Source: Eledone cirrhosa
Lineage: Eukaryota
Length of the DNA stretch: 64,000 nt
Direction: 5' to 3'
Assembly (NCBI GenBank): GCA_964016885.1
Contig: OZ024745.1
Coordinates: forward strand, 122,202,001-122,266,000
The notes below the pieces were generated by a model, which saw nothing but the letters and a program-made list of their open reading frames with translations, searched no databases and was not told where the DNA came from. Position numbers and translations under genes: made by a program. Positions 51,383 to 56,149 of this stretch are shown here, piece by piece. How positions within the stretch are numbered: position 1 is the stretch's first letter; each line of letters begins with the position of its first letter.

Positions 51383-51884
51383 TTCACCACAGATCAATGC
51401 TGGACTTGGCTCCTGGGTTCGAACAGCAACCTGTCTACAGTGACGCTGTCTTCGCACAGGATCTCTCAACAAATTTATCAAATTCTGGTCTGTATCCAGT
51501 ACGCGACCCTACCTGTGGAGTGGATGGTAATGACTCCGGTGTCCGAATCTGTATCAATGGAGTCACTGTTGGTAACTCTTCCGACAACCTGGCTGCGTCC
51601 ACTGTGGCTACAACAGAAAACAAATTCTCATCTGTTTTAGGTGAATTAGTGAAGTCAACCACAGAAAATGTTTATGGCAAGGAAAGTCGTTTTGTTTCTG
51701 CTTCTGGCAGAGATAAAGACGATAATGATCCTGGCCCTGTAAGTTCGGGATACGGTGAGCATGCTGGCTCTGGAATTCACAAGGAAGTCCATGGCCATCA
51801 AAGAACTGTCTCAGAAATTCCTAGAACTCACAGGAACTTAAATTATATCAGGTCTACAATGGCTTCATCACTCAGTGGGAAAAG
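51383..51884 (+). CDS. Internal coding exon C (VHHRSMLDLAPGFEQ...GHQRTVSEIPRTHRNLNYIRSTMASSLSGK)
   Basis: TTTATTTTGCAG acceptor, AG|GTAAGT donor; 502 nt stop-free, non-repetitive, higher GC than flanks; phase 1 to 2. Confidence 0.88.
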
Positions 51885-52409
51885 GTAAGTCAATATCTGA
51901 ATCATCTAATATATATCTGTATGTACATATAAATCAGTGTGTGTGTATATATATATATATATATCATCATCATCATCATCATCATCATCACCGTTTTACG
52001 TCCGTTCTTCCTTGCTAGCATGGGTTAGACGGGTTGTCCTGTTGTGGGCAGTGTCTGGTCGGCTGACCATGCCTTGCTCATACAGGAACTGATTTGGCTT
52101 GATTTCTACAGCTGGATGCCCTTCCTAACACCAACCTCATTTACAGTGAGTGCTGGGTGCTTTTTCGTGGCGCCTACACGTCCACTTTACAGTGTGGGCT
52201 GGGTGCTTTTTTGCCGTGGCACCTCCACGACCACCTTGCGGTGGGGGGTGTGGGGGCATATTGTTTATATGCTTCAGCTTGTACCCATGGGAGGTCGGGT
52301 ACTCTGTATTACTGCGTGACGCCAGATATATATATATATACACACACACATATATATATATGTATGTACATACACACACACATATATATGTATGTATATA
52401 CACACACAC

Positions 52410-53010
52410 GCATGCTCCGCTGGATGTGTAATAGCAATATATGTGAATGGCAAAGCATAAACGAACTAAGGGAGAAATTAGGAATAAGAGGAATCAGATG
52501 CTGTTTACTCGAGAGAAGACTACGTTGGTACGGTCACGTGATGCGCATGAAAGACGACAGCTGTATAAAAAAGTGCAGGGCGATAAAAATAGACGGTAGC
52601 CACGGAGTAGGCAGACCCAGAAAAACCTGGGACGACTTGATAAATTCCGACCTCACACACTTACACCTCTCCAAGACAATGTCATTGGACCGCGATCTTT
52701 GGTGCTACACAGTAATACAGAAGACCCGCCTTACCTAAGTACAAAGCGAAACCTACAGTCAGTAGGCACCTCTAACAAAAATACACCCCTGTCCCACTAC
52801 CCCCACCCCCATCCACACCACCCCCTTCAATGTAATGTTATGTTGCTACCACAACATCCAGTCCGAAACAAATGAGGTCGTGTAGGTGTCACAACAAAAA
52901 AACACACAGTCCACGCTGTAATGTGGCTATGTAGGTAACACGGTACAAACCTCCCAGTCCACACTGTAAATGTGGTTGGTGTTAGGAAGGGCATCCAGCC
53001 GTAGAAAACC
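52410..53010 (+). mobile_element. RTE-derived composite
   Basis: MLRWMC...RRLRWYGHVMRM...GRPRKTW; highly similar to the reverse complement of 36020-36635. Confidence 0.75.
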
Positions 53011-53364
53011 CTTTTACAGCACCTTTTCTACTTAGCCATAATAAATGAATATTTAAACTCTACTTCAGTATTGAGTACTCTTTTCTCCTGTCCGTCAACT
53101 GCATACAGATATATATAGGAAAAGTATATATATATATCATCATCATCATTTTACGTCCGTTCTTCCCTGCTTGCAAGGGTGGGACGGGTCTTATTCAGCA
53201 CAGCATCTCTCCACTTGTCACGGTCCTTTATATATATATATGTGAATGTATGTATAGTATATTTGGCAATATACCGTATATTTAATTAAAAACATTTTGA
53301 AGACCTTGCGCTATCATTTTTAAAGTAGTGACTATGTCACTTACTTCTTTTTTCAGCAAAGGAA

Positions 53365-53424
53365 GGGAGAGAAGCTGACAGATCTGTTTCACACTGTTGG
53401 TGTTCCTCAGAGCAACGTACTCCC
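53365..53424 (-). ncRNA. Type I hammerhead ribozyme motif, intact core
   Basis: Minus strand reads GGGAG-UACGUU-GCU / CUGAGGA / ACAC-CAACA-GUGU / GAAA / CAGAUCUG / UC / AGC-UUCU-CUCCC: all core nucleotides, three stems, GUC cleavage triplet. Confidence 0.85.
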
Positions 53425-53613
53425 CGACCTCTGCCGAAAATTATAGAGGCTGGATTCTTATAGAATTCCAGTAATAATCAGGAACTGATTATACAGAGCG
53501 ATTACCGGTCCAGCAAAAATAAAAAAATTAGGATTGGTGCCCTGAAATAGCGATGTATACATGAATGTATGTATAGTTAGGTAGAAGTGGTTACACAACA
53601 GTTGTGTAACCAC

Positions 53614-53673
<60 letters not shown>

Positions 53674-54635
53674 CTTTCCTAGCAAACTGATGCATAGAAA
53701 GCCAAACACACTAGCACCATGAAAAGAAGCACCCAGTCCATCCTGTAAGGGTTGTATTGGTGCCCACAACAAAAGCACTGTCTATACTGTAATGTTGTCA
53801 TACTGGTACCATGACAAAAAAAAATAATGCAATTAGTCCACTCTGTTAGGTAGCCATACTAGTTCCACAATGTAAAGCTCCCTATAAAAGGGGTAGTAGT
53901 GGTACCAGAAAAAGAAAATTTCTCAGTACACACTGTAATGTGGGTAATGTTATTTGGGGGTATCCAGCTGTAGAACCCAAGCCAGAAGCAGATCTATATG
54001 AGCAGGATGTGATCACCTGACCTGGCTAGCCTCAAAACGTGACAACCCATGCAAGTGTGGAAATTAGACATTAAGCTGTGATAAAGATGAGGATGATGAT
54101 GATGATACGCACACACACACTTCTACAGATCCCTTCTACCAAATTTCACTTGCCTGACATTGGCCAACCTGATGCTATAAAAATAAACACTTACTCTGGA
54201 CACCATGCAGTGAGAGAGAACCCAAAACTATGGGGTTAGGAAGCAAACTCCTTCAATGCACAATCATTCCTGCACCTACATAACTACCTGCGTCAGTTGT
54301 TACCTGACGGGACACTGCATCCTTCAAAACTTCCATGCTTCCCGAAATTCGCCAACACTACACCTGATATTCCTCCTCCATACACACACACACATGTATC
54401 TGTGTGTATATCGTGATGCAGACACTGTCCTCTTTCCTGATAGTTGTACATTATTCTATGTACTATATATGCACCTTTGATGAGTTTTAGTGCACCTGAG
54501 CACTGTACACAATAATTTTCATTATATTATAAACTATGTAAATTTCAAATTTGTTAATGTATTTGATTTGTAGAATATATTTTGTGCTTGAAAAAGCCTA
54601 TAGCCCATCATAATCAATTTGTTATTGTTTTTTAG

Positions 54636-54808
54636 CCACAGTTTAAATAGCCTAACAGGAGCGGAGGAATCAGATGAAGACTCCTTTCATGATGCCAGAG
54701 AGAACCCAACGCCAAGTCAATCTATGATGAACTTAAGTACAATGCCACCAGACACCATTCAGGGACATCAGAGGTCTATCAGCTCTGGAGATGCTTATTC
54801 TTCTATTG
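54636..54808 (+). CDS. Internal coding exon D (SHSLNSLTGAEESDEDSFHDARENPTPSQSMMNLSTMPPDTIQGHQRSISSGDAYSSI)
   Basis: TTGTTTTTTAG acceptor, G|GTAAAC donor; 173 nt, phase 2 to 1; contains FFAT-like EESDEDSFHDARE. Confidence 0.82.
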
Positions 54809-56149
54809 GTAAACAAAAGCACAATATGTCATACATTCTGCATTATAATTGTGTGTTTTTATTGTATTGGATTGGCAGTATAGGTAGAGCTTCAGACACC
54901 ATGCTTCGCAGCATGGAGTTGTGGCCCTTTATGTTCTGAGTTCAAATCCCACCGAGTTTAACTTTGCCTTTCATCCTTATGGGGGTCAATAAAATAAAGC
55001 ACCAGTAATGCACTGGGGTAATTGCTGGCCTTGTGCCAAACGTAGAAACAGTTATTATAGATTAGTCCCAGGCCAGCCCTGATTGGACAGACTTATGATC
55101 AAAGTCGTTCCAGTCATATTTTCAGACATAGTTTATCTAACACTCTCTTATCTATTATCTATCCTCCATTTTTATTTTAAGATGGTAGGATGTTACATGA
55201 GGGAAATTTGGTTGTTGTTTCTAGCAAATGGAGTAACAATGTGGAGGAGTTATATGTGTATTGGTGGTGGATGAGTATTGAAGTTAAATATTTGTGTGTA
55301 GTTAATAAGAACACTTAGAATTATATATCTGTACCTGATTATATAGAGCTGTCAATCTGTGATGCACTAATAATCGGTATTAGGTATCATTTCTTCCTCT
55401 CATTTTTCTTTTGTGGCTATCTTTTAGATTATACATAGGGTTGTCTGCAACATTTCTGTGGCATTGCTTTATATTAACCCTTTCTTTACTATATTTTCTT
55501 ATTCAAATGCACCCTCATATATTTCAATTGAATTCTCAGCAAGATCAAAACTATAGGTTTTTTTTTTTTGTTCATTCATATATGAATGTGCTCTTTGGAA
55601 AATAATTTAACAAAAGGTTTTATATAGATTTAGGATGGAATTTTTGTTTCAAAACCCTTGTTATTAGATGTAACTACAGGAAAATCAAGTGGAATGTAAC
55701 CTTATTAAAACTTTGTTTAAATATTATCATATAAAATGAATTATCAACTAGCATCCATATACAGGGTGTCCCCCAAAGATGTATACACACATTGATTACC
55801 TGTACAAGCAATATTTATTAGAATGCACAGGTTTCCCCCATACAATAGTACTCCATAAATACTGGAAAGACTAATCAGATCTGGTTTATTCCAAGAAATT
55901 TCAAAGAGATATTTTTAAAATGTCCATTCTATTGTGTTCCTGGAATAGTTTCATTCCCCACTGTCAGAATTGCTTTCCCTATTGGAAATTGAAATATCTG
56001 ATTCCTGTATCCAACAGGTTATATTTTTGTTGCATTTTTTATTTGCTGGTGTCACTGCTTCTATTGGAATTCTTCAAATTCAAATTCTCTAATACTGAAT
56101 GTGAAGCTGATATCCAGTTGTTACAAGTGTATGAAGCTGTAGAAAAGAT

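What the first reader, a model, noticed from the sequence alone, without database searches (positions are those of the whole stretch)
53365..53424. Textbook intact hammerhead ribozyme antisense within the intron between exons C and D
Seen: perfect core CUGAGGA/GAAA/GUC, 4-bp stem II with a 5-nt loop and palindromic stem III CAGAUCUG. Stem I has 3 bp plus 5 bp separated by an internal loop (UACGUU/UUCU). Established: in type I hammerheads that loop position contacts loop II to give fast cleavage. Predicted cut is between 53377 and 53376 on the minus strand. It is antisense to the host gene, so it would spare the pre-mRNA but could process an antisense or element transcript (inference).
Basis: partly seen in the sequence, partly recalled or inferred. 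Interest (0 to 1): 0.8.

Follow-up and report, generated by a model that had tools for sequence, protein, structure and literature searches.

The report
Hammerhead inside a Penelope-mobilised retrozyme repeat
The hammerhead ribozyme motif is really there, but it is one of more than a thousand copies carried by a small 319-base repeat that likely spreads as a self-cut circular RNA using Penelope-type transposon enzymes, and this copy sits backwards in an intron, so it is probably not a switch for the host gene.

Summary
The type I hammerhead at 53365-53424 (minus strand) is real, and the predicted cut lies at 53377/53376. It is not specific to this locus. It is the core of a 319-nt, protein-free repeat; this copy spans 53243-53577. 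The family has at least 1,283 hammerhead-bearing and 3,604 tail-motif matches genome-wide, and its stems covary between subfamilies. It fits the animal non-LTR retrozymes.

The insertions carry the Penelope-like-element signature:
- Outer 3' ends fall at two fixed sites 34 nt apart (134 of 158), mostly followed by (TA)n; none falls near the ribozyme cut.
- 36 of 37 classifiable inverted composites pair one short end with one long end.

No examined Penelope family shares sequence with the unit, so the helper is unresolved. This copy has one ribozyme, lacks the 3' tail and lies antisense in an intron, so it is likely a dead end. Its monomer is predicted to misfold and to work better as a dimer. 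"Textbook" and "fast" are overstated. Cleavage and expression were not testable. The scan has noted Penelope-patterned tandem repeats in other genomes. Verdict: new member of a known kind; the tail signature on a retrozyme is the modest novelty.

The parts
53243..53577 (-). The insertion: one full 319-nt unit (53577-53259) plus 16 nt of the next unit (53258-53243); 36.7% G+C, no protein gene; ends at the short, tail-less 3' site
53365..53424 (-). Type I hammerhead ribozyme motif; predicted cut between 53377 and 53376
53371..53416 (-). Six-position helix I (53416-53411 with 53376-53371; two U.U mismatches in this copy) enclosing the core, stem II (53403-53391) and helix III
   Evidence: helices 3 and 4
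53417..53419 (-). Loop 1 (UAC here, UGC in most other rows of the alignment), the likely partner of loop 2 (53399-53395)
   Evidence: the tertiary contact is inferred from canonical type I hammerheads (PMC4209133)
53378..53387 (-). 10-nt palindrome of helix III; predicted 10-bp intermolecular duplex in a dimeric hammerhead
   Evidence: duplex -13.6 kcal/mol; cofold -79.8 against 2 x -38.1
53350..53440 (-). 13-bp outer extension of stem I (53440-53428 with 53362-53350), strongly covarying between subfamilies
   Evidence: helix 1: 7 of 13 pairs change on both sides, 94.8% of cells paired
53527..53560 (-). 34-nt 'tail' between the two recurrent 3' ends of the family (unit positions 17 and 51); present here only in the 5' part of the unit
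53553..53575 (-). AC-rich stem-loop holding the short 3' end site, the predicted reverse-transcription start
   Evidence: z -2.1, weak; analogy with PMC11167929
53230..53241 (.). (TA)n run at the 3' junction
53575..53618 (.). Palindromic filler at the 5' junction: two inverted copies of the extreme 3' end of a separate Hydra-type Penelope-like family, joined to the unit through a 3-nt microhomology and followed by a long (TA)n
51885..54635 (+). Host intron (GT-AG) between putative exons 51383-51884 and 54636-54809, which join in frame; host gene not identified
   Evidence: no Pfam, Atlas or homologue hit

Best explanation
This is one solo, antisense intronic copy of a 319-nt protein-free repeat family that carries a type I hammerhead and likely spreads as an animal non-LTR retrozyme, using the enzymes of Penelope-like elements (PLEs). 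Shown in DNA: a closed 319-nt unit, thousands of dispersed copies, covarying ribozyme stems, two fixed 3' ends 34 nt apart, (TA)n targets, and inverted 5'-truncated partner arms. Inferred cycle: multi-unit loci are transcribed; successive hammerheads cut out unit-length RNA, for this variant probably as a dimer through the helix III palindrome; a host ligase closes it into a circle; a PLE reverse transcriptase/GIY-YIG endonuclease nicks (TA)n, starts at the two internal sites 135 and 169 nt downstream of the cut, and copies past one full unit. This copy has one ribozyme and no 3' tail, so it would be cut at most once, could not release a circle, and is likely a dead end with no role for the host gene.
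For: Copy number: 2,329 candidates, 40 scored, all 40 full length at 96-100% identity, this locus included; 1,283 and 3,604 exact pattern matches, controls 0. Of the first 30 pattern hits, 30 lie in this unit family. Closed unit: 33 of 75 loci have a block over 400 nt, up to 954 nt; 9 of 168 blocks read through two cut sites. Covariation: 12 of 31 pairs, including 3 of 4 in stem II. The circularised unit folds at -86.4 kcal/mol, z -6.9, 0 of 60 shuffles as low. PLE signature: of 158 outer 3' ends, 73 are at the short site, 61 at the long site, 24 elsewhere and 0 within 10 nt of the cut; 100 of the 134 are followed by (TA)3. Of 53 divergent pairs, 36 are short+long, 1 short+short and 16 have an unclassified end. 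Positive control: an autonomous PLE of this genome shows short+long in 6 of 7 inverted pairs (read). PMC11167929 shows in vitro that a PLE enzyme starts at two internal sites that bound the 30-40-nt tail, cuts AT-rich DNA, and calls the tail unique to PLEs. PLE families with long open frames are abundant here.
Against: No cleavage, transcript or circle was observed. A circular template is not distinguishable in DNA from an uncut linear multimer, and in PMC11167929 ribozyme-dead RNA inserted normally. No examined PLE family shares sequence with the unit. The two helper candidates whose tails could be measured have about 60 and 66 nt, not 34. Most copies are about one unit long rather than long tandem arrays. 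In the Xenopus preprint only 1 of 9 predicted retrozymes cleaved in vitro. Related subfamilies can pass the shuffle control without structure, and 3 of the 6 rows dropped from the alignment break stem I.
Confidence: 0.72

Rival explanations
1. Same PLE-mobilised non-autonomous repeat, but the template is an uncut linear read-through RNA from tandem loci. The hammerhead only trims transcripts or is protein-gated, and no circle is needed.
For: PMC11167929: ribozyme mutants insert normally, unprocessed RNA is the main substrate, and no RNA-seq reads end at the cut. Blocks read through the cut (116 of 168), and 5' ends do not pile up at it (13 of 168 in the bin after the cut, mean about 10). One locus holds a hammerhead-free 163-nt tandem with the normal long end.
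Against: Ribozyme stems covary while the rest of the unit is conserved, so folding is under selection. Copies longer than one unit are common although multi-unit source loci are a minority. Mussel, coral and axolotl retrozymes were shown to accumulate as circles (PMC7229834).
Confidence: 0.15
2. The copies are 5'-truncated terminal repeats (pLTRs) of an autonomous Penelope-like element, each made afresh from the parent, and not a self-propagating unit.
For: The tail, inverted arms and (TA)n targets are all PLE features (PMC8557442). Only about 95 of several thousand loci were inspected.
Against: Upstream of the unit lies the unit's own 3' end, repeatedly. No inspected locus runs from the unit into a coding frame as a pLTR would. 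PLE pLTRs in this genome and most metazoan PLEs carry minimal hammerheads, whereas this one is canonical.
Confidence: 0.07
3. The copy has been co-opted by the host: it cleaves an antisense transcript of this gene and so tunes its expression or splicing, like the conserved intronic hammerheads of amniotes.
For: The core is intact and it lies antisense in an intron.
Against: It is 96-99% identical to dozens of unrelated loci, with 19 identical cores. Intactness is explained by youth. Similarity stops at the element's ends. The monomer is predicted to misfold.
Confidence: 0.04

Closest known systems
Non-LTR retrozymes of animals (Cervera and de la Pena 2020, PMC7229834; Li, Clavereau and Pollet 2026, bioRxiv 10.64898/2026.07.22.740005)
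   Same: Unit of 150-450 nt, low G+C, canonical type I hammerhead, no protein, no LTR, thousands of copies as monomers and short tandems, self-paired predicted circle, PLEs in the same genome. Helix-III-dependent dimer behaviour is predicted, as shown for axolotl.
   Different: Mostly dispersed ~1-unit copies with inverted arms; a two-site 34-nt tail and (TA)n targeting, which I did not find described for retrozymes in the parts read (the preprint has 0 occurrences of 'tail'); no pLTR homology to a resident PLE found, unlike 24 of 57 Xenopus families; RNA not examined here.
Insertion units of endonuclease-positive Penelope-like elements (Craig et al. 2021, PMC8557442; Frangieh et al. 2024, PMC11167929)
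   Same: 5' truncation, partial tandems, inverted upstream arm, 30-40-nt tail on one end only, AT-rich or (TA)n targets, hammerhead upstream of the two start sites, AC-rich stem-loop at a start site.
   Different: No RT or GIY-YIG frame; the unit closes on itself after 319 nt; the hammerhead is canonical with loop 1, not the minimal PLE type.
Canonical metazoan type I hammerhead (described in PMC4209133)
   Same: 6-position helix I, 4-bp helix II, short palindromic helix III, full core.
   Different: A-U at the base of stem II, two U.U pairs in helix I of this copy, a 13-bp covarying outer stem; missed by all Rfam 15 models.

Membership tests
Type I hammerhead ribozyme | Conserved core CUGANGA / GAAA / NUH with three helices and an open helix I | tested here: met
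Type I hammerhead ribozyme | Helices supported by compensatory changes | tested here: met
   stem II 3 of 4 pairs, helix I 1 of 6, outer stem 7 of 13. The core, inner helix I and most of helix III were fixed by the search pattern and give no evidence.
Type I hammerhead ribozyme | Match to an Rfam hammerhead model | tested here: not met
   no hammerhead family at gathering score or at E<=10. This is a library feature, not a defining one.
Type I hammerhead ribozyme | Site-specific self-cleavage | not testable with these tools
   predicts a weak monomer and a competent dimer
Non-LTR retrozyme | 150-450-nt protein-free unit, G+C under 50%, with a type I hammerhead | tested here: met
   319 nt, 36.7% G+C; no coding-like frame in the unit
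Non-LTR retrozyme | Head-to-tail tandem copies with a ribozyme in each unit | tested here: met
   Family level: dimer at L008, trimer at L108, 9 of 168 blocks through two cut sites. This copy itself is a monomer.
Non-LTR retrozyme | High copy number, dispersed | tested here: met
Non-LTR retrozyme | Expressed as linear and circular unit-length RNA | not testable with these tools
   no RNA holder listed
Non-LTR retrozyme | pLTR homology to a resident PLE (seen for part of the Xenopus families) | tested here: inconclusive
   None in the 4 or 5 PLE families sampled; other families seen in flanks were not examined.
Autonomous Penelope-like element | RT plus GIY-YIG frame between pLTRs | tested here: not met
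PLE-mobilised sequence | Two 3' ends 30-40 nt apart, tail on one arm only, inverted 5' arm, AT-rich target | tested here: met
Conserved intronic hammerheads of amniotes | Single-copy motif conserved at an orthologous locus | tested here: not met
   Multi-copy; orthology in relatives not testable because no relatives are held.

The most novel reading that the evidence does not exclude
An undescribed retrozyme family, in what looks like an octopus genome (organism recalled, not verified), that bears the diagnostic Penelope tail. It would be direct genomic evidence that a PLE enzyme reverse-transcribes a ribozyme-made circular RNA from two internal start sites. It does so without detectable sequence homology to the resident PLEs, so it may hijack one or several PLE families by RNA shape alone. 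Chimeric junctions with three different PLE families, including at this very locus, would then be template switches within single integration events.
Probability: 0.35. Interest if true: 0.5.

Novelty: new member of a known kind. Interest (0 to 1): 0.27.

Why it matters
As a single locus it matters little: it is a young repeat insertion. As a family it offers a clean test of an open question, namely which enzymes move animal retrozymes. The 2020 paper names PLEs as a candidate, and the 2026 preprint supports this by co-occurrence and pLTR homology but leaves the mechanism open. Here the two-start-site tail, which an in vitro study ties to PLE enzymes, is stamped on a closed 319-nt unit. That predicts exact start sites for an in vitro assay. 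The subfamilies also form a natural series of hammerheads predicted to range from near monomer-competent (0.7 kcal/mol gap) to dimer-dependent (6-11 kcal/mol), and Rfam misses the copy tested.

Tried and rejected
Rfam: no hammerhead hit.

Expression: no RNA holder listed. The three runs are contigs of one sample that behave as genomic DNA, so they say nothing on expression. Their depth dip over the ribozyme is explained by subfamily divergence there.

Parent search: a Hydra-type PLE next to locus L028 looked like a parent, but 0 of 19 other copies and none of 5 longer loci share sequence with the unit beyond simple repeats. A PLE family joined to the unit at L129 and L072 (which I call Neptune-like from its Zn-finger linker, not from a tree) has a minimal hammerhead, a 60-nt tail and no shared sequence. 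Its sister family also shares none. A second Hydra-type family at this locus has a tail of about 66 nt and no shared unit sequence (1 of 25 loci holds a separate retrozyme copy).

Hammerhead-free derivative as its own family: rejected, all 4 of 4 junction matches are at one locus.

Opposite-strand ribozyme in the unit: none with the core pattern.

Barrier at the cut among 5' ends: not seen.

Scripts: regex counting of ends was confounded by internal AT runs and is used only for the 34-nt spacing. The first unit-length pick (285 nt) was a script error, corrected.

Host gene and PLE protein: identity of the host gene not found. The PLE protein has no Pfam hit, so its assignment rests on motifs described in PMC8557442.

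Earlier findings: the look-up by sequence returned nothing.

Full report
Observation. The minus strand at 53424-53365 holds a complete type I hammerhead layout with the cut after C53377. Rfam 15 finds no hammerhead in the window at gathering score, or locally at E<=10. The 81-nt region folds better than shuffles (z -2.8, 2 of 200 as low), but its best fold pairs the start of the core with helix III. The putative host exons 51383-51884 and 54636-54809 join in frame over a GT-AG intron. The host gene could not be named.

It is a repeat. A 141-nt query gave 2,329 candidates in the 3.0-Gb genome; the 40 scored were all full length at 96-100% identity, this locus included. Similarity spans window 53577 to about 53234 and stops there. 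The ends overlap with a 319-nt period (22 of 27 bases match). A hammerhead pattern has 1,283 exact matches and a tail motif 3,604, both with 0 in reversed controls. The exact 47-nt core of this copy occurs 19 times. All 30 of the first 30 pattern loci are the same unit family, with subfamilies that differ mainly in the ribozyme. From recall, the repeat landscape looks like an octopus; no call verified this.

The fold is under selection. I aligned the window copy with 24 of those 30 loci. I dropped L090, L092 and L093 (junction arms or a duplicate), L098 and L099 (deletion in stem I) and L102 (truncated); three kept pairs of rows are two arms of one insertion. On the named structure, 92.2% of cells pair, 12 of 31 pairs change on both sides, and 0 of 500 shuffles reach these values, although 'further pair types' was not above shuffles (295 of 500). 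Slid controls pair 43-50%. Stem II varies at 3 of 4 pairs, and the outer stem at 7 of 13. The core and inner pairs were fixed by the pattern and carry no weight. Covariation redraws stem I as a 6-position helix followed by a UAC/UGC loop, the canonical metazoan layout of PMC4209133 (part 1 of 4 read).

Predicted activity. For this copy the active monomer fold is -31.8 kcal/mol against -38.1 for the inactive best fold. The cofold of two copies gives the double hammerhead with a 10-bp shared helix III at -79.8. Across the 30 loci the gap runs from 0.7 to 11.4. The circularised unit folds at -86.4 (z -6.9, 0 of 60 shuffles). These models ignore tertiary contacts and proteins. Axolotl retrozymes cleave poorly as monomers and well as dimers (PMC7229834: Results parts 1-2 of 3 and Discussion read; the supplement was unreadable, and may list further species). 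Only 1 of 9 predicted Xenopus elements cleaved (bioRxiv 10.64898/2026.07.22.740005, parts 1-3 of 5 read; supplements closed).

How it moves. I mapped 95 loci (110 fetched, 15 overlapping duplicates removed; chosen by similarity to this copy, by the ribozyme pattern or by the tail motif, so not a random sample) to the unit and obtained 168 blocks. Of 158 outer 3' ends, 73 fall at a short site, 61 at a long site, 24 elsewhere and 0 within 10 nt of the cut; 100 of the 134 are followed by (TA)3. Of 53 divergent pairs, 36 are short+long, 1 short+short and 16 include an unclassified end. 116 blocks read through the cut, 9 through two cuts. Without the 20 tail-selected loci the picture is the same: 53 and 44 of 125 ends in the two main bins, and 42 of 75 loci with an inverted block. 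The two sites are 34 nt apart in 8 of 9 arms where both were matched. By eye they are unit positions 17 and 51, because BLAST overruns into the TA run.

This is the anatomy described for PLE insertions (PMC8557442: passages and section 11 read). It is explained in vitro by two internal reverse-transcription starts that bound the tail, in an AC-rich stem-loop, on AT-rich DNA (PMC11167929, parts 1-2 of 4 read). An autonomous PLE in this genome obeys the same short+long rule in 6 of 7 inverted pairs (read). Unlike a truncated PLE, the sequence upstream of the unit is the unit's own 3' end: 33 of 75 loci exceed 400 nt, up to three units.

Helper. PLEs abound: 36,956 and 35,464 first-look candidates for two protein queries, 150 scored each, with long frames of about 710 aa bearing the Hydra-clade DKT and CxCx5C motifs, and of 750-1,250 aa in a second family. 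None examined shares sequence with the unit. Direct junctions occur with three different families: at L129 and L072, at L028, and in the window itself, where 53575-53618 is the inverted extreme end of a second Hydra-type family (2,762 exact matches). These may be template switches, or microhomology joins between neighbours that share the (TA)n target. L129 pairs two long ends, which breaks the short+long rule. The helper stays unresolved.

This copy. It is one unit plus 16 nt, ends at the short site, lacks the 3' tail, has one ribozyme and lies antisense in an intron. It would spare the pre-mRNA, could be cut once if the minus strand is transcribed, and could not release a unit by two cuts (inference).

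What is known. It meets the testable features of an animal non-LTR retrozyme; expression and cleavage are untested. Five literature searches (listings only, apart from the five papers named) showed no report of a cephalopod retrozyme or of the tail on a retrozyme. The library lacks most subscription papers and Repbase, so the family may already be catalogued as a repeat. Earlier notes of this scan describe similar Penelope-patterned repeats in other genomes; I did not check them. Verdict: observation confirmed, interpretation partly supported, new member of a known kind, interest 0.27.

Noticed in passing
L116:2384-3018 (G000:C1 about 56.078 Mb): A hammerhead-free deletion derivative of the unit, 163 nt, in 3.7 tandem copies ending at the normal long site before (TA)n. 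One junction base alternates between units, as if copied from a two-unit template. Unique locus (4 of 4 matches).
   Followed up: partly
window 53575-53618; L174-L198: A second Hydra-type PLE family with its own short hammerhead in the pLTR (same CUGAGGA core, palindromic helix III), a tail of about 66 nt and many tiny inverted insertions in (TA)n.
   Followed up: partly
L129:1190-2700 and L072:1-1800: Chimeric divergent inserts: one arm is the retrozyme, the other a 5'-truncated PLE with a minimal hammerhead and 60-nt tail, with no TA run between them.
   Followed up: partly
L113, L114, L115: An abundant Hydra-type PLE with near-intact frames of about 710 aa, whose pLTR shows no canonical hammerhead in my scan but internal repeats of about 135 nt, although PMC8557442 says Hydra elements carry canonical hammerheads.
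   Followed up: no
window 53344 and 53542 (minus strand): The unit carries a splice-donor-like site just downstream of the ribozyme and an acceptor-like site in the tail, framing a 197-nt pseudo-exon around the hammerhead. The donor is lost in many copies by a 4-nt deletion.
   Followed up: no
window 54636-54809: The putative exon encodes an acidic tract with an FFAT-like motif (motif name recalled), and both exons carry an HQRxxS motif; the gene was not identified.
   Followed up: partly
L038 near one end: Another, unrelated canonical-looking type I hammerhead with a 7-bp stem I, so further ribozyme families exist in this genome.
   Followed up: no
window 9628-12076: A long tandem repeat with open frames in several phases and extreme GC skew.
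   Followed up: no
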